This document shows, piece by piece, positions 6,592 through 62,064 of a DNA stretch of 64,000 nucleotides; position 1 is the first letter of the stretch; the number at the start of each line of letters is the position of its first letter. A model generated the notes under the pieces. That model did not search any database. It was given only the letters and a program-made list of their open reading frames with translations, and had not been told where the DNA came from. Source of the stretch: Octopus vulgaris (taxonomy: Eukaryota); assembly GCA_951406725.2 (NCBI GenBank), contig OX597833.1, positions 15,562,001 to 15,626,000 on the forward strand. The letters run 5' to 3'. Both the position numbers and the translations under genes were made by a program.

Positions 6592-7018
6592 GGATCTTTT
6601 CGGTTTGAACGGCAGTTTTTTCTAGCGGTGTCATATGAAATTGTCACCCATAATTATGACCCTAGTATCGATCTATTGCATTTTAATCTGTTTTAGGTTT
6701 AGGGTTAGTTAGCGTTAGGGGTGGAGGGAAGGGTATCGTTTTTTATTCACAAATGTAAATAAACCCAATCTGTTTCTTAAACGAGGGACATATTCATACG
6801 ACACAGAATGTTTTTTTATCTCAATGGGCGTCATTGATTGGTTGAAATTACAGAAATTGATGAAAAAAAACAACAAATATATTACAAACTATAGAATTTT
6901 CTCAATAAATCCAAGAGAAAAAATGTTTTATAAACACATTCTACCAGTATACGAAGTTTAAAATGTTTTAGTTACCTAGAAATTATGTTAAAAACTGCCG
7001 TTCAAACCGAAAACATCC
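6592..7018 (+). mobile_element. MITE (non-autonomous DNA transposon), ~29-bp TIRs, 8-bp TSD
   Basis: TIR ggat(c/g)ttttcggtttgaacggcagttttt at both ends. Flanks aactgtgc (6584-6591) and aactgtgt (7019-7026). Second copy at 43020-43444. Confidence 0.9.
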
Positions 7019-20348: not shown

Positions 20349-21586
20349 TTCTTTATTAGCCACACAGGGCTGCACACAGATAGAACAAATTACAAGGTAG
20401 AGCTTTTCTTTTGAAGGTTTAAGAAAGAAAAAAAAAAAAAAAAAAAAGGAAGGGGGAGTTTCGATCAAAAGGGATCGTAAAAGGAGAGAAAGAGGACAAA
20501 AAAAAGGGGGTTTAAAAAAAGGGGGGAGGAAAAAAATTGATCAATAGGGATCGTTATCACAGAAATATCAATATGAAGTGTAAAGGGGAGGACAGGTGAG
20601 GTTTACCCGTGCAAAGAAAAGCCTACGGAAAAGACCACGGTAACCTCGGTCAATGATGTCACATTTTATATTTCTTTTTTTTTTTTTTGCAAATAAGCAA
20701 CTCTCTGTTTTCGATTTCTGGGTTCATAGGATCATGCTCAAGGTGGCTTCGTCATTCATACGTGCCATTCTTGCTACATTCACCCATCTTTTTTTAAAAC
20801 ATTCGCTAGACAAAACTTGCCTCTCTACTCTCACTTTCCTTTTCAAGTGGTACTTGAAGAAGTTGATGAGGGATTGACCAGAGAGGAAAGTGTTTGTCTC
20901 CAATCCTTTCAGACGCGTCCACCAGATACATTCTTTCGCCATAGCCACAAGGATGATGAAAATAGCTCTTCCTTCCCGTTTGAAGGAAGGAGGCGTGACA
21001 ATATTGACGATAGACTCAGCTGATAAACCGACTCGTCCCACACGTGACAGCAGTTGTTCGACATAAGCCCACAGGTCGGAAATTGTTGGACACTGAACGA
21101 GTGCGTGCAGAACGGTTTCGTCGCTCTGACCGCATCTCGGGCAGGTCGGCCCCGTGTTTCTCGAGCCGTGTCTGTAGAGCTTATCCCGAACGGGTAGCGC
21201 TTCTCGGTAGCACTGCCAGGCCAGGGATCTCTGGAAGTTGTCCATGGGCCCTGGCCCGAAAGTCGTCCTGAACAGGCGGGTCAGGTACTCCTCGTCGACG
21301 TCCAGGTTCGCCCCGAGCTCGTCGTCGTACCTCCCCTCCACTAAACCCCTATAGAATGCTTTGGTTGTGTTGAAGTCACTTAAGGTCGACCCAGGACGGC
21401 AGAGTTGCTTGAGAGCAACGCGACACTCGCGGTGCCATTCGCCCTTCCTCGGCCTCTTTTTGATCCACGACTGCAGTTCGGTCATGGAGATGAGCTGCGG
21501 GAAAGCGTGCCTCACAAACGGCGACCACACCTGTTCACCGTCGTCTACATAGAGCCAGAGATGCCGCAGTCTCAGCGCGTGTCTGC
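20349..21586 (-). mobile_element. 5'-truncated Tx1/L1-clade LINE inserted in (GATA)n
   Basis: ORF2 C-terminus plus ~375-nt 3' UTR ending aataaagaaa. gatagatagatagatatgt is duplicated at 20330-20348 and 21599-21617. Confidence 0.88.
20724..21586 (-). pseudogene. LINE ORF2 C-terminal part with zf-RVT-type CCHC zinc knuckle
   Basis: Uninterrupted frame: WQCYREALPVRDKL...CPRCGQSDETVLHALVQCP...W. The listed start codon lies in the microsatellite and is not real. Confidence 0.85.
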
Positions 21587-21626
21587 GATAGATAGATAGA
21601 TAGATAGATAGATATGTATATATGTG

Positions 21627-21689
<63 letters not shown>

Positions 21690-21704
21690 ATGTGTGTGTG
21701 TGTG

Positions 21705-21911
21705 TGAGTGACCGCGTGTGTACCGTTGGCGATTTTTTTCCTCTGTCTTCGCTTCTCTGGATCTTTCCTTCTCCTATGTTTCCGACAAAGAGCTCCGCTC
21801 GAAACGTAAACCCCTCCTTCATTCCTACTTTCCTGAGCATCCAATAATACTATATTTGTTCCACGTTCTCGCGTTGTTGTGTTTTTTTTGTACTTTCATG
21901 TTTGGATTAAC

Positions 21912-21915
<4 letters not shown>
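21705..21915 (+). mobile_element. Short PLE-type non-autonomous element (same family as 40948-41155)
   Basis: Homologous ~210-bp unit ending ttggattaact then (TA)n. Contains an HHR-like motif. Confidence 0.7.
21778..21811 (+). ncRNA. Minimal hammerhead-like motif with degenerate core (CCGACAA)
   Basis: gttt-CCGACAA-a-gagc/tcc/gctc-GAAAC-GTA-aac. The G8 position is mutated, so probably inactive. Confidence 0.5.
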
Positions 21916-21988
<73 letters not shown>

Positions 21989-27104: not shown

Positions 27105-28430
<1,326 letters not shown>

Positions 28431-30015: not shown

Positions 30016-30089
30016 TGATTTACTTTCTTTTCTAATATTTAGGATGATATTGTTTTCCACTATTAAAGTAATACGATTACGAAATATTT

Positions 30090-30570
30090 ATTTCTTTACT
30101 ACCCACAAGGGGCTAAACACAGAGGGGACAAACAAGGACAGACAAACGGATTAAGTCGATTATATCGACTCCAGTGCGTAACTGGTACTTATTTAATCGA
30201 CCCGGAAAGGATGAAAGCAAAGTTGACCTCGGCGGAATTTGAACTCAGAACATAGTGGCGGACGAAATACCTATTTCTTTACTACCCACAAAGGACTAAA
30301 CACAGAGAGGACAAACAAGGACAGACAAGCAGATTAAGTCGATTATATCGAACCCAGTTCGTAAATGGTACTTATTTAATCGACCCCGAGAGGATGAAAG
30401 GCAAAGTCGACCTCGGAGGAATTTGAACTCAGAACATAGTGGCAGACGAAATGCCTATTTCTTTACTACCCACAAGGGGCTAAACACAGAGGGGACAAAC
30501 AAGGACAGACAAGTTGTTTAAGTCGATTATATCGACCCCAGTGCGTAACTGGTACTTATTTAATCGACCC
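30090..30570 (-). mobile_element. SINE family B tandem array (~2.6 units, 5'-truncated)
   Basis: Junctions gaaat(a/g)cctatttc at ~30270 and ~30453. Confidence 0.9.
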
Positions 30571-31302: not shown

Positions 31303-31795
31303 TGTCTAATATGTTAACGTCGAACGAACGGAAATATCTCTGAATATTCAGACCGGAATTGAATAAAGTTCGCTAGACTTACGATATCAACAACTTAGTG
31401 AATATTTTGGGAGACCAACATCTCATTCTTCTTCTATTATATTTTGAATCATTCGGTATTTGTAAATAATCGATTAGTCAGCCTATAATTACCAGACAAC
31501 TTTCAGCTTAATCATCGCAAATTAAACTCCATCAATTATTAATTATCGTGTTTCCTATTCTTAATGAAAACTCTTGAATTATAAATGAGTGTATCTAGAA
31601 TTTTTCTGACGCTTTTTACTCCAATTTAGTGAATATAGATATTACACTCAAGCAAATAACACCGTATTTTCCTGCAATTAATGTAGATACACTTAATACA
31701 TTCTAATCGATGTATAATGCACAGACACAGTGTTTTCTATACTAGCACAGATTTATGTTATTCGCATAAATGCATTTACCGTCTTAAAACACACC

Positions 31796-32397
31796 TATTT
31801 CTTTACTACCCACAAGGGGCTATCACAGAGGGGACAAACAAGGACAGACAAACGGATTAAGTCGATTATATCGACCCTAGTGGCGTAACTGGTACTTAAT
31901 TTATCGACTCCGAAAGGATGAAAGGCAAAGTCGACCTCGGAGGAATTTGAACTCAGAACCTAACGGCAGACGAAATACATATTTTGTTTACTACTCACAA
32001 GGGGCTAAACACAGAGGGGACAAACAAGGACAGACAAACGGATTAAGTCGATTATATCGACAGCAGTATGTAACTGGTACTTAATTTATCGAATCCGAAA
32101 GGATGAATGGCAAAGTCGACCTCGGAGGAATTTGAACTCAGAACCTAACGGCAGACGAAATACCTATTTCTTTACTACCCACAAGGGGCTAAACATAAAG
32201 GAAACAAACAAGGACAGACAAAGGGATTAAGTCGATTACATCGACCGTAGTGCGTAACTGGTACTTATTTAATCGACCCCGAAAGGATGAAAGGTAAAGT
32301 CGACCTCGGCGGAATTTGAACACAGAACGTAACGGCAGACGAAATACGGCTACGCATTTCGCCCGGCGTGCTAACGATTCTGCCAGCTCGCCGCCCT
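31796..32397 (-). mobile_element. SINE family B tandem array (3 units)
   Basis: One head plus three bodies. TSD ccgtcttaaa(a/g)ca(c/t)acc at 31779-31795 and 32398-32414. Confidence 0.92.
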
Positions 32398-36127: not shown

Positions 36128-36940
36128 AAATTAGAAAACCACCTTTTATCCAATTCAATAATGAAAGATTAAGTTATACCATTTATAAAAATTACATATT
36201 ATAAAAGATTAAATATAAGATAAAACATATAACAATGATTAAGCAATGTGCAAAATAATAAATAAAACGTATATATTTGGTATATATTTACTTTTTATTT
36301 ATTATTTTGTACATTACTTAATCATTAATAAATCTCTGAACGAGATGTAAACAGTAACCGCTCGACAATGTAAAGTATAATAGCCATCTCAATATGGCTA
36401 ACCACAAAGGGAGGGTGTTACTGAAGCTTTTAGCCCCAGGAGATCATCGTCTCCAGCTGCCTTTAGGCACACTATCTGTGCCCTTATGGTATTTGCAAAG
36501 GGAGGTCATCCCTTTCTCGTAAGCCTAAGTGATACGCACGGACCGCAGTTTCGAGGTAGTTGCCTGTTGTCAACGGGCGGTAATCACCGGTTTACGATGA
36601 AAAGGAAGACCTTGTATGCAAATACTTAAGTGTTTTTCTAGTAACTTCCGTCACTGATTTCGAAAAACTGTCTGCAAGCAATAATATATCTTGCACATAC
36701 CATAAGGGCACAGATAGTGTGCCTAAAGCCAGCTGGAGACGATGATCTCCTGGGGCTAAAAGCTTCAGTAACACTCACCCTATGTGGTTAGCCATACTGA
36801 GATGGCTATTATACTTTACATATACTTAATCATTGTTATATGTTTTATCTTATATTTAATCTTTCTATAAGATGTAATTTTTCTAAATGGTATAATTTAA
36901 TTTTTCATTATTGAATTGATAAAAGGTGGTTTTTCCTAAT

Positions 36941-36946
<6 letters not shown>
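36128..36946. mobile_element. Nested inverted-repeat cassette in (TA)n, probably PLE-derived
   Basis: Outer IR ~36128-36245/36825-36946, inner IR ~36368-36497/36690-36822, small IR ~36235-36328. (TA)n on both sides. Confidence 0.75.
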
Positions 36947-37013
<67 letters not shown>

Positions 37014-38821: not shown

Positions 38822-39215
38822 ATTTTTTTATTGCCCACAAGGAGCTAAACACAGAGGGGACAAACAAGGACAGACACAGGGATTAAGTCGATTACATCGA
38901 CCCTAGTGCGTAACTGGTACTTAATTTATTGACCCCGAAAGGATGAAAGGCAAAGTCGACCTCGGCGGAATTTGAACTCAGAACGTAACGGCAGACGAAA
39001 TACCTATTTCTTTACTACCCACAAGGGGCTAAACATAGAGAGGACAAACAAGGACAGACAAACGGATTAAGTCGATTATCTCGACCCCAGTGCGTAACTG
39101 GTACTTAATTTATCGACCCCGTAACGACGAAAGGCAAAGTCGACCTTGACGCAATTTGAACTCGAACGTAACGGCAGACGAAATACCGCTAAGAATTTCG
39201 CCCGGCGTGCTAACG
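38822..39215 (-). mobile_element. SINE family B tandem array (2 units) with scrambled 5' end
   Basis: Junction gaaatacctatttc at ~39003. Confidence 0.88.
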
Positions 39216-40947: not shown

Positions 40948-41150
40948 ATGTGACCTCGTGAGCACCGCCAGCAATTCTTTTTTCCTCTGTCTTCCCTTCT
41001 CGGGATCTTTCCTTCTCCTTTGTTTCCGACGAAGAGCTCCGCTTGAAACGTTAAACCCTCCTTCTTCCCTTCTTTCCTGAGCGTCCAATAATACTTTATT
41101 TGTTCCACGACCTCTCGTTGCTGTGTTTTTTTGTGTTTTCTTGTTTGGAT

Positions 41151-41155
<5 letters not shown>
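40948..41155 (+). mobile_element. Short PLE-type non-autonomous element
   Basis: Homologous to 21705-21915. Ends ttggattaact then (TA)n. Confidence 0.7.
41022..41056 (+). ncRNA. Minimal hammerhead motif with CCGACGA core variant
   Basis: gttt-CCGACGA-a-gagc/tcc/gctt-GAAAC-GTT-aaac. Stem I is gttt/aaac and stem III is the loopless palindrome ACGT. Confidence 0.65.
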
Positions 41156-41230
<75 letters not shown>

Positions 41231-41515: not shown

Positions 41516-41768
41516 AATATATATATATATAGGAGTGGCTGTGTGGTAGGTATCTTGTTTACCAACCACATGGTTCCGGGTTCAGTCCTACTGCGTGTCA
41601 CCTTGGGCAAGTATCTTCTACTATAGCCTCGGGCCGACCAAAGCCTTGTGAGTGGATTTGGTAGACGGAAACTGAAAGAAGCCCGTAGTATATATGTATA
41701 TATATATATATATTTAGTGAAGGGAAGAAATGGAGCCGAACGAAGATTCTACAAAATTCCTTTTTATT

Positions 41769-41854
41769 ATTTTCTACACATGTTTCAAAGGCTGCGAATT
41801 CCCACATTCGGCTTGAATAAGGAGACCATTCTGCAGCTTTCTCTTCAGGAAAAT
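41769..41854 (-). ncRNA. Type I hammerhead ribozyme (inverted copy)
   Basis: Reverse complement of 41999-42084 with intact core. Confidence 0.8.
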
Positions 41855-41998
41855 CCAGGAATTTAAAATCTCAAAACAAATGCGCAGCAAGCTTTTCGAA
41901 CAAAACGCTCCCTAGGAGCCCATGGTAAAAATGGCACCTAGGGAGCGTTTTGTTCGAAAATCTTGCTGCGCATTTGTTTTGAGATTTTAAATTCCTGG

Positions 41999-42084
41999 AT
42001 TTTCCTGAAGAGAAAGCTGCAGAATGGTCTCCTTATTCAATCCGAATTTGGGAATTTGCAGCCTTTGAAACATGTGTAGAAAAT
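41999..42084 (+). ncRNA. Type I hammerhead ribozyme
   Basis: Stem I attttc/gaaaat (6 bp), CTGAAGA at 42005-42011, stem II gaaagctgca/tgcagccttt, GAAAC at 42067-42071, ATGT, cleavage triplet GTA at 42076-42078. Confidence 0.85.
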
Positions 42085-42292
42085 AATAAAAAGGAATTTT
42101 GTAGAATCTTCGTTCGGCTCCATTTCTTCCGTTCACTAAATATATAAAACTTCAATTATCCGCGCTAAAGCACGGGGGTGAAACCCCATGGTCGTAACAT
42201 CAACCGTCTCTTTTCTGGTGTGATTTTTGCTACACAGGTATCGGTTAAATTTTGAATAATCCGTAACAAGATAATTCATTTATCCATTTCAT

Positions 42293-42332
<40 letters not shown>

Positions 42333-43019
42333 TGTGTGTCTGTGTTTGTCACCCTATCATTGCTTGACAACCGATGCTGGTGTGTTTATGTCCCTGTAAC
42401 TTAGCAGTTCGGCAAAAGAGACCGATAGAATAAGTACTGGGCTTACAAAAGAATAAGTCCCAGGGTCGATTTGCTCGATTAAAAAGGTGGTGCTCCAGCA
42501 TGGCCGCAGTAAAATAGCGGTTCGACAATAAAGAACCGTTTTTAAAAGCAGTTTTTAAAAAGAATACACTACTCGATTTGTTCGACACAAAGCCCTTCAA
42601 GGCGGGGCACCAGCAAGGCTGCAGTGTAACAATAGAATATAAAATATGTAAATATGAAATTAGGAATTTCTCAGTTAAAATATCACAAACTGCTGGAATG
42701 AACTAAACAACAAAACATAAAACCGAAATTGAACCAGAAGGAAATAAATTACCACACTCACCGTTTCATTGTAACTTAATTCATTAATTATATCACCGGT
42801 ACTATGTCCATTTAATTAGAATCTCTAAGGAAAGAAACGCAATGGGAATGCAACAAGCAGAGACAATTAAGAACCAGACTTCGTCACGCTTGGGAATTAA
42901 GCAGGAAAGTTTTTAGAGAGCTGCTTCTGATAGGGCACGACTATCGTAATACTCCCAAGAATATTGGGTGGAAATGGTGGAGGAGTTAGGGGATGGATAA
43001 ATGAACGTAATATTTTCGA

Positions 43020-43444
43020 GGATGTTTTCGGTTTCACCGGCAGTTTTTTTTAAATAATTTCCACGTAACTAAACACTTTTAAACTTCGTATACTGGTAGA
43101 ATGTGTCAAAATAAAACATGTTTTTCTCTTGGCTTTATTGAGAAAATTCTAGAGTTTGTTAGGTATTTGTTGGTTTTTTTTTTCAATTTCTGCAATTTCA
43201 ACCAATCACTGACGTCTATTGAGGTAAAAAAAAACATTCTGTGCCGTATGAATATGTCACTCGTTTAAGAAACAGATTGGGTTTATTTACATTTGTGAAG
43301 AAAAAAAAAGATACCCTTCCCCCACCCCTAACCCTAATCCTAAAATAGATAGAAATGCAATAGATCGATACTAGGGTCATAATTATGGGTGACAATTTCA
43401 TATGACACCGCTAGAAAAAACTGCCGTTCAAACCGAAAACATCC
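43020..43444 (-). mobile_element. MITE, same family as 6592-7018
   Basis: TIRs ggatgttttcggttt and aaaccgaaaacatcc. Body is the reverse complement of the first copy. Confidence 0.9.
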
Positions 43445-44422: not shown

Positions 44423-44785
44423 AATATTAGGGAATAAATCCAAACTTACAGGGAAAAATCAGATTTAGGATTGAATCCAATTTTATAGTAAAATATTATA
44501 TTATATTAAATTAGAGACAAAACCACTATTAGGCAAATCATACAATGAAAAACTTCATTGTTTAAACCTCGCCAAGATAAATATTTAAACCACCTGATGA
44601 ATGACTGTGACTCGAAAATTTAAAGAAGTTAGCAGCCATGAAACGATCGTAGTGATATATTAATTATATTTTTTTAATAATTTTGTTATATATTTAAATA
44701 ATATAAATTAAATAATCTTATGTATTGGGTTAAGTTTTTCATTGTATGATTTGCCTAATAGTGGTTTTGTCTCTAATTTAATATA

Positions 44786-44790
<5 letters not shown>
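44420..44790. mobile_element. PLE-type inverted-repeat cassette in (TA)n
   Basis: ~57-bp IR at 44499-44555/44731-44788 enclosing an HHR. (TA)n on both sides. Confidence 0.78.
44589..44656 (+). ncRNA. Type I hammerhead ribozyme
   Basis: accac-CTGATGA-atgactg...cagccat-GAAAC-GATC-GTA-gtgat. Palindromic stem III ACGATCGT. Confidence 0.78.
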
Positions 44791-44841
<51 letters not shown>

Positions 44842-55484: not shown

Positions 55485-56082
55485 AAGGCGGCGAGCTGGC
55501 AGAAACGTTAGCGCGCCGGGCGAAATGCTTAGCGGTATCTCGTCGGCCGTTACGTTCTGAGTTCAAATTGTGCCAAGGTCGACTTTGCCTTTCATCCTTT
55601 CGGGATCGATTAAATAAGTACCAGTTACGCACTGGGGTCGATATAATTGACTTAATCCGTTTGTCTGCCCTTGTTTATCCCCTCTGGGTGTAGCCCCTTG
55701 TGGGTAGTAAAGAAATAGGTATTTCGTCTGCCGCTACGTTCTGAGTTCAAATTCCGCCGAGGTCGACTTTGCTTTATCCTTTCGGGGTCGATTAAATAAG
55801 TACCAGTTACGCACTGGGGTCGATATAATCGACTTAATCCGTTTGTCTGTCCTTGTTTATCCCCTCTGTGTGTAGCCCCTTTTGGGTAGTAAAGAAATAG
55901 GTATTTCGTCTGCCGTTACGTTCTGAGTTCAAATTGTGCCGAGATCGACTTTGCCTTTCATCCTTTCGGGGTCGATTAAATAAGTACCAGTTACGCACTG
56001 GGGTCGATGTAATCGACTTAATCCGTTTGTCTGTCCTTGTTTGTTCCCTCTATGTTTAACCCTCGCCGGCAGTAAAGAAAAA
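55485..56082 (+). mobile_element. SINE family B tandem array (3 units)
   Basis: Junctions at 55718 and 55900 (period 182). TSD tatatttg(g/a)tgttcga at 55469-55484 and 56083-56098. Confidence 0.93.
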
Positions 56083-60184: not shown

Positions 60185-60811
60185 GGCGGCGAGCTGGCAG
60201 AATCGTTAGCACGCCGGGCGAAATGCTTAGCCGTATTTCGTCTGCTACTACGTTCTGAGTTCAAATTCCGCCAAGGTCGACTTTGCCTTTCGGGGTCGAT
60301 AAATTAAGTACCAGTTACGCACTGGGGTCGATGTAATCGACTTAATCCGTTTGTCTGTCCTTGTTTATCCCCTCTGTGATAGCCCCTTGTGTGTAGTAAA
60401 CAAATAGGTAAGTTTAGCCCCTTTTGGGTAGTAAAGAAATAGGTATTTCGTCTGCCGCTACATTCTGAGTTCAAATTCCGCCGAGGTCAAATTTCCCTTT
60501 CATCATTTCGGGGTCGATTAAATAAGTACCAGTTACGCACTGGGGTCGATATAATCGACTTAATCCGTTTGTCTGTCCTTGTTTGTGCTCTCTGTTGTGT
60601 AGCCCCTTGTGGGCAGAAAAGAAATAGGTATTTCGTCTGCCGCTACATTCTGAGTTCAAATTCCGCCGAGAGTCAAATTTCCCTTTCATCCTTTCGATGT
60701 CGATAAATTAAGTACCAGTTACGCACTGGGGTCGATGTAGTCGATTTAATCCCTTTGTTTGTCCTTGTTTGTCCCCTCTATCTTTAGCCCCTTGTGAGAA
60801 ATAAAGAAATA
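60185..60811 (+). mobile_element. SINE family B tandem array (3 units plus partial tail duplication)
   Basis: TSD core gtaatcgcccgaa at 60172-60184 and 60819-60831. Confidence 0.92.
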
Positions 60812-61245: not shown

Positions 61246-62040
61246 GGCGGCGACCTGGCAGAAACGTTAGCGCGCCGGGTGAAATGCTTATCGGTATTTT
61301 GTCTGTCGTTACGTTCTGAGTTCAAATTGCGTCAAGGTCGACTTTGCCTTTCATCTTTTCGGGGTCGATAAATTAAGTACCAGTTATGCACTGGGGTCGA
61401 TATAATCGACTTAATCCGTTTGTCCTCTCTGTGTTTGCCCCTTGTGGGTAGTAAAGAAATATGTATTTCGAACGTCTTTTCGCACTCCAGTTCTGAGTTG
61501 ACTGTGGCTCTCATCCTTTCGCGGTCGATAAAGGTAAGTACCATCTGAGCACTGGGCTCGATGTAATCAACTTACTCCCTACATCGAAATTACGAGCCTT
61601 AATACCTATGCCTGTCCTTCTTTGTCCCCTCTATGTTTAGCCCCTTGTGGGTAGTAAAGAAATAGGTATTTCGTCTGTCGTTATGTTCTGATTTCAAATT
61701 CCGCCGAGGTCGAATTTGCCTTTCATCCTATCGGGGTCGATAAATTAAGTACCAGTTACGCACTGGGGTCGATGTAATCGACTTAATACCAATGTCTGTC
61801 CTTGTTTGTCCCCTCTATGTTTAGCCCCTTGTGGGTAATAAAGAAATAGAAATAGGTATTTTGTCTGTCGTTACGTTCTGAGTTCAAATTCCGCTGAGGT
61901 CGACTTTGCCTTTCATCCTTGCGGGGTCGATAAATTAAGTACCAGTTACGCACTGGGGTCGATGTAATCGACTTAATACCAATGTTGTCTGTCCTTGTTT
62001 GTCCCCTCTATGTTTAGCCCCTTGTGGGCAGTAAAGAAAT
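61246..62040 (+). mobile_element. SINE family B tandem array (4 units, one chimeric)
   Basis: Perfect 20-bp TSD atatatttatatatctataa at 61226-61245 and 62041-62060. Confidence 0.92.
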
Positions 62041-62064
62041 ATATATTTATATATCTATAAGTAT

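What the first reader, a model, noticed from the sequence alone, without database searches (positions are those of the whole stretch)
41706..42295. 440-nt fold-back with an intact hammerhead on each strand, inserted into a SINE's internal (TA)n
Seen: ~215-bp near-perfect arms with a ~7-nt spacer, and full cores at 41999-42084 (+) and 41769-41854 (-) with a 6-bp stem I and an unusually long stem II. Whichever strand is transcribed, the antisense copy is made first and the ribozyme second. Knowledge: PLE pseudo-LTRs often occur as inverted duplications. Inference: the geometry would self-silence the ribozyme and make long dsRNA, while internal initiation or A-to-I editing could release it. Near-identical arms suggest a young insertion.
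Basis: partly seen in the sequence, partly recalled or inferred. Interest (0 to 1): 0.8.

Follow-up and report, generated by a model that had tools for sequence, protein, structure and literature searches.

The report
Head-to-head Penelope retroelement ends, hammerheads buried
This 590-base insert is two tail ends of an abundant repeat joined head to head inside a TA run, each carrying a hammerhead-ribozyme motif, and it is most likely the ordinary scar that a Penelope-like jumping gene leaves when it lands rather than a built-in ribozyme switch.

Summary
In detail: 214-bp arms (6 mismatches), a type I hammerhead motif on each strand (0 strict hits in 60 shuffles), inside a SINE's (TA)n. Public contigs show a high-copy family whose uninverted form runs through the whole 'spacer'. 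So the insert is a left copy (41707-41937, minus) and a right copy (41938-42302, plus) with a ~150-nt one-sided tail. Both outer ends are the same 10-mer, at sites where other copies also end in TA runs. Inverted 5'-truncated copy, tail, (TA)n target and opposite-strand hammerheads are all published traits of Penelope-like elements (PMC8557442, PMC3846280, PMC4209133), and this scan has noted the pattern in other genomes. No RT-endonuclease gene was found, so membership is inferred. Read-through RNA would bury the ribozyme, but nothing shows that this locus is transcribed or regulated, and the exact junction was not seen in independent contigs. Two modest extras: helix II is 55 nt, beyond standard descriptors, and a second family 2.3 kb away has a 39-nt one; a probable RNA run shows a weak A>G excess that includes core A14, which would disable rather than release the ribozyme. 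Known kind; low interest.

The parts
41531..41714 (+). 5' half of the host SINE (A/B-box-like head) ending in its internal (TA)n; the last ~8 nt are shared with the element end
   Evidence: 12 paralogs at 81-94% identity; alignment; Pol III boxes read by eye
41707..41937 (-). Left copy: 5'-truncated element end, antisense on the top strand, 3' end at site 1 (10-mer TAAATATATA); includes the whole apparent spacer
   Evidence: loose ends at 41937 (X1, X8) and 41933 (X3) show the uninverted element running through 41921-41937
41769..41854 (-). Type I hammerhead motif of the left copy; core intact, one A-C mismatch in stem II
41916..41937 (+). Inversion junction: imperfect hairpin (6 pairs, 1 mismatch, 1 bulge, 7-nt loop); the right copy starts where its terminal pair would prime
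   Evidence: sequence; weak, about -1.2 kcal/mol, rank 50 of 178 end positions
41938..42146 (+). Right copy, part shared with the left copy, ending at site 1
41999..42084 (+). Type I hammerhead motif: stem I 41999-42004/42079-42084, core 42005-42011 and 42067-42070, 55-nt helix II, self-complementary helix III 42070-42077, predicted cleavage after 42078
   Evidence: family variants
42085..42090 (+). AATAAA poly(A)-signal-like hexamer just after stem I (mirror at 41763 on the minus strand)
   Evidence: function not tested
42147..42302 (+). One-sided tail: family sequence between site 1 and site 2, ending in the same 10-mer TAAATATATA
   Evidence: covered by family contigs in all 4 runs; repeat D6
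42296..42515 (+). Rest of the (TA)n and the 3' half of the host SINE

Best explanation
The insert is two 5'-truncated ends of one high-copy repeat, joined head to head inside a SINE's (TA)n, and is most likely a dead-on-arrival insertion made by the reverse transcriptase-endonuclease of a Penelope-like element. Shown: the anatomy, the family, the two recurrent end sites 156 nt apart with an identical TA-rich 10-mer, and the junction on a weak natural hairpin. Inferred steps: the enzyme cut both strands of the TA tract; each target end primed a cDNA, one at site 1 and one at site 2, probably helped by about 7-8 nt of TA pairing; the 3' end of the left cDNA then paired with an antisense strand 22 nt back (the second cDNA, or itself) and fill-in sealed the palindrome; the stretch between the two start sites is the tail. 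The hammerheads are passengers from the parent's pseudo-LTR, where they likely work as same-strand dimers through helix III. Here each strand has one motif, and read-through RNA would lock it in a ~210-bp duplex that is a likely ADAR or small-RNA substrate.
For: Family: 1026, 735, 491 and 42 contigs laid in 4 of 4 runs; 20 of 24 listed runs, 4 organism codes, 9 studies hold part of the stretch. Uninverted upstream continuation through the spacer in 3 of 4 runs (one contig each). Copies ending in a TA run at site 1 (6 contigs in X1; tables 5 and 5c for X1, X2, X8) and at site 2 (X3 record 22, X8 record 32), and copies reading on through site 1 into the tail (5 contigs in X2). Hammerhead: among the 40 of 53 variant rows shown, none hits a core base in the three DNA-sized runs; the variants in basal stem II and helix III keep pairing (42022 G>A 86-93%; 42066 T>C 3-7%, giving G10.1-C11.1; 42074 G>A 25-58%, giving a perfect palindrome), while 6 rows lie in distal helix II. 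Helix III self-duplex -6.0 or -7.0 kcal/mol. Literature: inverted 5'-truncated copy plus one-sided tail and (TA)n targets (PMC8557442, passages); Penelope-13_HM lists a hammerhead on both strands (its supplement); opposite-strand hammerheads 100-700 bp apart (PMC4209133, parts 1-2 of 4); inverted pLTR overlapping the direct one by 15 bp, palindromes at junctions (PMC3846280, passages and Discussion); both strands cut and extended, two RT start sites define the tail (PMC11167929, parts 1-2 of 4). A second unrelated insert of the same build lies at 44428-44795.
Against: No RT or GIY-YIG gene was linked to the family: none among 115 of 273 filtered reading frames of the window, no hits in the pattern scans, and 0 of 5 short motifs in the PLE consensus supplement of PMC8557442 (wrapped lines could hide a match). 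The tail is ~150 nt against the published 30-40 nt. The junction hairpin is no stronger than chance along the arm. In the one Penelope-like element tested in vitro, RT starts at sites not homologous to the target, unlike the TA pairing inferred here. All pair-keeping variants are one-sided, none is a double change. The exact junction was not seen in independent contigs.
Confidence: 0.8

Rival explanations
1. Same Penelope-like origin, but built by one cDNA that started at site 2, snapped back on the hairpin at 41916-41937 and copied itself; the left arm then lost its tail by endonuclease resolution or TA-microhomology deletion at site 1. This is a variant within the best explanation, not an alternative to it.
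For: The polarity of the junction fits snap-back of the top strand exactly; the two 5' ends lie only 22 nt apart, unlikely for two independent truncations; PMC3846280 reads junction palindromes as self-priming; PMC8557442 ascribes the tail to endonuclease resolution.
Against: Needs an extra trimming step; free copies ending at site 1 already exist in the family; the hairpin is weak; 5 differences between arms would all have to be post-insertion.
Confidence: 0.35
2. The family is a non-autonomous retrozyme-like unit that borrows a Penelope-like enzyme and has no coding master of its own; this locus is an inverted pair of such units.
For: No coding partner found; very high copy number of short ends; a preprint derives animal retrozymes from pseudo-LTRs (10.64898/2026.07.22.740005, part 1 of 5 and passages).
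Against: No head-to-tail repeat at the locus; no go-back joint among the 4 joints listed; sequence continues upstream and, in one contig, downstream of site 2.
Confidence: 0.12
3. The palindrome is a fixed, self-propagating fold-back unit or a selected dsRNA/ribozyme switch, released by internal initiation or editing.
For: Both cores are intact; family sequence is in runs guessed to be RNA, with a weak A>G excess; one X2 contig joins near the same centre (41918 to 41962).
Against: The uninverted form exists; that X2 joint differs from this one; the geometry is the published by-product; A>G sites would damage the core; only one copy in 64 kb; no locus-specific transcript shown.
Confidence: 0.05
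4. Assembly or library fold-back chimera.
For: No independent contig bridges the centre; such structures trouble short-read assemblies (PMC8557442).
Against: Arms differ at 5 places; the mirror stops at the element end and does not enter the flank; the SINE halves stay collinear; the tail is family sequence.
Confidence: 0.03

Closest known systems
Insertion units of endonuclease-bearing Penelope-like elements, closest in ribozyme style to the Hydra clade, e.g. Penelope-13_HM (PMC8557442 main text passages and supplement S1/S2)
   Same: Inverted 5'-truncated copy joined at the 5' end, hammerhead on both strands, (TA)n target, 8-10-nt self-complementary helix III, GUA cleavage triplet common
   Different: Helix II region 55 nt against about 10-25 nt in the Hydra rows; tail ~150 nt against 30-40 nt; not the listed Hydra-1_Obim hammerhead; no ORF found, so no clade can be assigned
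Dual opposite-strand minimal hammerheads of Schistosoma Cercyon PLEs (PMC4209133)
   Same: Two type I motifs 100-700 bp apart on opposite strands, long helix II, palindromic helix III for dimer formation
   Different: Here helix III has 2 bp plus a 4-nt loop and helix II is much longer
Adineta vaga Pen2a-type inverted pLTR (PMC3846280)
   Same: Head-to-head copies with a short asymmetric overlap (15 bp there, 22 nt here), tail on one side, palindrome at the junction
   Different: There a full ORF and a 9-bp target duplication; here no ORF and a duplication cannot be read in (TA)n
PLE-X1_sMoe hammerhead (supplement S2 of PMC8557442)
   Same: 9-bp stem II with a ~35-nt loop, so a long helix II has precedent in PLEs
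   Different: Plant, endonuclease-less, targets 28S rDNA; marked there as deviating from canonical
Non-LTR retrozymes (PMC7229834, passages)
   Same: Short non-coding units with type I hammerheads in animal genomes, including a mollusc
   Different: Retrozymes are head-to-tail arrays with same-strand ribozymes; this is head-to-head

Membership tests
Endonuclease-bearing Penelope-like element | Single ORF with PLE-type RT and GIY-YIG endonuclease linked to the repeat | tested here: inconclusive
   None in the window or in collections that lack animal genomes; no genome held; motifs absent from one consensus set
Endonuclease-bearing Penelope-like element | Type I hammerhead with self-complementary helix III near the 3' end | tested here: met
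Endonuclease-bearing Penelope-like element | Inverted 5'-truncated copy joined head to head | tested here: met
Endonuclease-bearing Penelope-like element | One-sided tail between two recurrent 3' end sites | tested here: met
   42147-42302; family copies end at both sites; longer than the published 30-40 nt
Endonuclease-bearing Penelope-like element | Insertion into (TA)n or AT-rich targets | tested here: met
Endonuclease-bearing Penelope-like element | Partial-tandem pseudo-LTR in front of an ORF | not testable with these tools
   needs the genome assembly
Hammerhead ribozyme, type I | Conserved core and three helices | tested here: met
   descriptor and shuffles; no Rfam model matches
Hammerhead ribozyme, type I | Self-cleavage at H17 | not testable with these tools
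   contigs cannot show RNA ends (table 6 empty)
Hammerhead ribozyme, type I | Loop 1 - loop 2 tertiary contacts | not tested
   no comparative alignment of full motifs was available
Non-LTR retrozyme | Head-to-tail repeats with two or more same-strand hammerheads | tested here: not met
   no tandem array at the locus; one motif per strand; other loci not examined
MITE / fold-back DNA transposon | Fixed unit with symmetric terminal inverted repeats | tested here: not met
   asymmetric tail; uninverted form and single-arm ends exist in the family

The most novel reading that the evidence does not exclude
This genome (probably an octopus, from recalled repeat sequences) holds very abundant Penelope-like families whose hammerheads have 40-55-nt helix II arms, missed by Rfam and by the 7-17-nt spacer descriptors; the 'half-core' motifs reported for cephalopod and nematode Naiads may be real ribozymes of this type. 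Their head-to-head scars supply long dsRNA in which ADAR edits core A14 and the poly(A) signal, switching the ribozyme off, and both priming sites pair with the TA target through one element-encoded 10-mer.
Probability: 0.2. Interest if true: 0.5.

Novelty: new member of a known kind. Interest (0 to 1): 0.24.

Why it matters
As a locus it matters little: it is one of very many scars. Its value is as a clean record of how Penelope-like elements integrate, still an open question (PMC8557442 calls the origin of tandem/inverted structures unresolved): two start sites, a 22-nt offset junction and arm-specific bases let one-cDNA and two-cDNA models be told apart across copies. If the long-helix-II motif cleaves, current hammerhead descriptors undercount ribozymes in such genomes.

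Tried and rejected
No whole genome is held, so copies and inversion points could not be counted directly. Pattern scans found nothing: metagenome contigs 2 of 2 scans, prokaryote genomes, viral contigs; these collections are not animal genomes, so the blanks say nothing. Rfam: no gathering-score match in 64 kb; the 31 E-value matches are hairpin-shape or TA-repeat noise, all under their gathering scores. No RNA holder is listed as such; X3 is only guessed to be RNA. The free fold of the ribozyme regions is not exceptional (z -0.4 to -0.7; helix II alone -2.0 and -1.8). The idea that the junction sits on an unusually strong hairpin was tested and failed (rank 50 of 178). The 156-nt spacing between the end sites is not a tandem repeat. 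The 90-aa frame at 41601-41870 and its antisense frame have no Pfam match. Arm differences are not an A>G series, so there is no sign of an edited template. Paper searches: octopus + Penelope + hammerhead gave only PMC8557442 as relevant; a five-term search for a microhomology mechanism gave 0 papers; the SINE could not be named from a listing. One side alignment was made in the wrong orientation and ignored. Supplements of the bioRxiv preprint could not be seen; those of PMC4209133 were not opened and may list mollusc motifs.

Full report
Observation. The window holds a 214-bp inverted repeat at 41707-41920 / 41933-42146 with 6 mismatches. It finds 0.017 loose and 0 strict hits per shuffled window in 60 shuffles, and none in 2000 shuffles of the element. 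Rfam misses them. The insert splits a SINE at its internal TA tract: 12 long paralogs of the 5' half lie in the window at 81-94% identity, and 9 of 9 that I aligned run straight through the tract. A target duplication cannot be read in (TA)n. The repeats look like those of an octopus; that name is recalled and comes from no call.

What the public contigs add. Twenty of 24 listed runs, from 9 studies and 4 organism codes, hold part of the stretch, none more than 53% of its words. I laid 41880-42312 on four of them: 1026, 735, 491 and 42 contigs fit, so this is an abundant family. Single contigs in X1 and X8 match up to 41937 and then go on in other letters, and a contig in X3 shows the same letters from the other strand in front of 41933. 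The uninverted element therefore runs through the whole apparent spacer. The insert is a left copy (41707-41937, minus strand) and a right copy (41938-42302, plus strand) whose 5' ends are 22 nt apart. The junction lies on an imperfect hairpin (6 pairs, 1 mismatch, 1 bulge, 7-nt loop) with the polarity expected if the top strand's 3' end had paired with an antisense strand. The hairpin is weak, and ranks 50 of 178 possible end points, so it is compatible with priming but does not explain the choice of site. No listed piece bridges this exact centre. One X2 contig joins 41918 to 41962 with unknown letters between, a weak hint of a different junction nearby.

The two outer ends. 42147-42302 is family sequence, covered in all four runs. 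Both outer junctions end in the same 10-mer, TAAATATATA, within a 26-nt motif of 81% identity repeated 156 nt apart. Family contigs end in TA runs at the first site (6 in X1) and at the second (X3, X8), others read through the first site into the tail (5 in X2), and one X2 contig reads past the second into non-TA sequence. At site 1 the 10-mer is element-encoded, since the right copy carries it internally; about 7-8 nt of it match the target. That pairing helped priming is my inference; the one element tested in vitro started at sites without homology.

The ribozyme. The core is canonical. Among the 40 of 53 variant rows shown, none touches a core base in the three DNA-sized runs; the three variants in basal stem II and helix III keep pairing, and six rows lie in distal helix II. 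The window's helix III is self-complementary with two G-U pairs, and the common variant makes it a perfect palindrome (-6.0 and -7.0 kcal/mol as a duplex). This fits the dimer model of PMC4209133, in which single motifs did not cleave and dimers cleaved weakly. These are one-sided changes seen through an 85% identity filter, so they support but do not prove selection. The active monomer fold is predicted 2.1 and 6.5 kcal/mol above the best fold; the full fold-back is about -360 kcal/mol. Each strand carries one sense motif, so this locus cannot form a same-strand dimer. The SINE's Pol III transcript would probably end at 41761-41765, so a fold-back RNA needs Pol II read-through, which I could not show.

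Editing. Run X3, only guessed to be RNA, has 11 A>G among 47 changed places against 7 among 93 in the three others pooled (Fisher p 0.014, runs not independent; 0.08-0.14 run by run; 11 A>G against 5 T>C, p 0.066). Two or three contigs carry A>G at 42069 (core A14), 42083, 42089 and 42092. This is weak, family-level, and could be diverged genomic copies. If real it would disable the motif (my knowledge of the A14 requirement). Heavy editing of Penelope repeats in lizard and of repeats in octopus is published (PMC5625713, passages).

Comparison. Every structural trait is in print for Penelope-like elements: inverted 5'-truncated copy, one-sided tail and (TA)n bias (PMC8557442, passages); a Repbase element with hammerheads on both strands and octopus families that prefer (TA)n (its supplement); opposite-strand motifs 100-700 bp apart (PMC4209133); short overlaps and palindromes at inverted junctions (PMC3846280); cutting and extension of both strands with two start sites that define the tail (PMC11167929). 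The defining ORF was not found, so it works like, and most likely is, such an element, with clade unknown. Differences are of degree: a 55-nt helix II (one plant precedent of about 53 nt) and a ~150-nt tail. A second, unrelated insert at 44428-44795 has the same build and a 39-nt helix II (0.01 relaxed hits per shuffled window in 100 shuffles), so the long helix recurs in this genome. Earlier notes of this scan describe the same pattern in other genomes; they are unchecked and I count them as agreement only.

Verdict. Real, well explained, a new member of a known kind. Interest 0.24. The most novel reading left open is a class of long-helix-II hammerheads silenced by editing (probability 0.2, interest 0.5 if true).

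Noticed in passing
window 44428-44795: Second (TA)n-flanked insert of the same build from another family: 64-bp inverted arms 44493-44555 / 44732-44795, ~65-nt one-sided tail, hammerhead core 44594-44651 (+) with palindromic helix III, 39-nt helix II and 3-bp stem I; an 8-bp hairpin sits at its inversion junction.
   Followed up: partly
window 36128-36950: Nested inverted repeats between two (TA)n tracts: outer ~130-nt arms and inner 131-bp arms (36368-36498 / 36691-36821, 95%); no hammerhead core found.
   Followed up: partly
run X2, loose end behind 42302: One contig continues past the second end site in non-TA sequence; it may be the onward run of the parent element and a handle for finding its ORF.
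   Followed up: no
window 42208-42239: Polypyrimidine run ending in CAG, the deepest part of the family profile in X1, X8 and X3 and shared with a subfamily that has different flanks; looks like a 3' splice site, which would fit the intron known in pseudo-LTR regions.
   Followed up: no
window 43020-43444: 425-bp element with 33-bp terminal inverted repeats and an 88% paralog at 6592-7018; MITE-like.
   Followed up: no
window 20727-21773 (-) and 40978-41160: LINE remnant with a zf-RVT domain; a neighbouring 186-bp piece (21734-21919) recurs at 88% just left of the SINE, also beside a (TA)n.
   Followed up: no
window 27139-28426: 1.3-kb (TAA)n array with regular interruptions.
   Followed up: no
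window 30079-30570, 31793-32347, 38822-39187, 55534-56051, 60413-60811, 61598-62041: Dispersed short arrays (2-3 units) of one ~184-bp unit; tandem organisation, no hammerhead hit by my descriptors.
   Followed up: no
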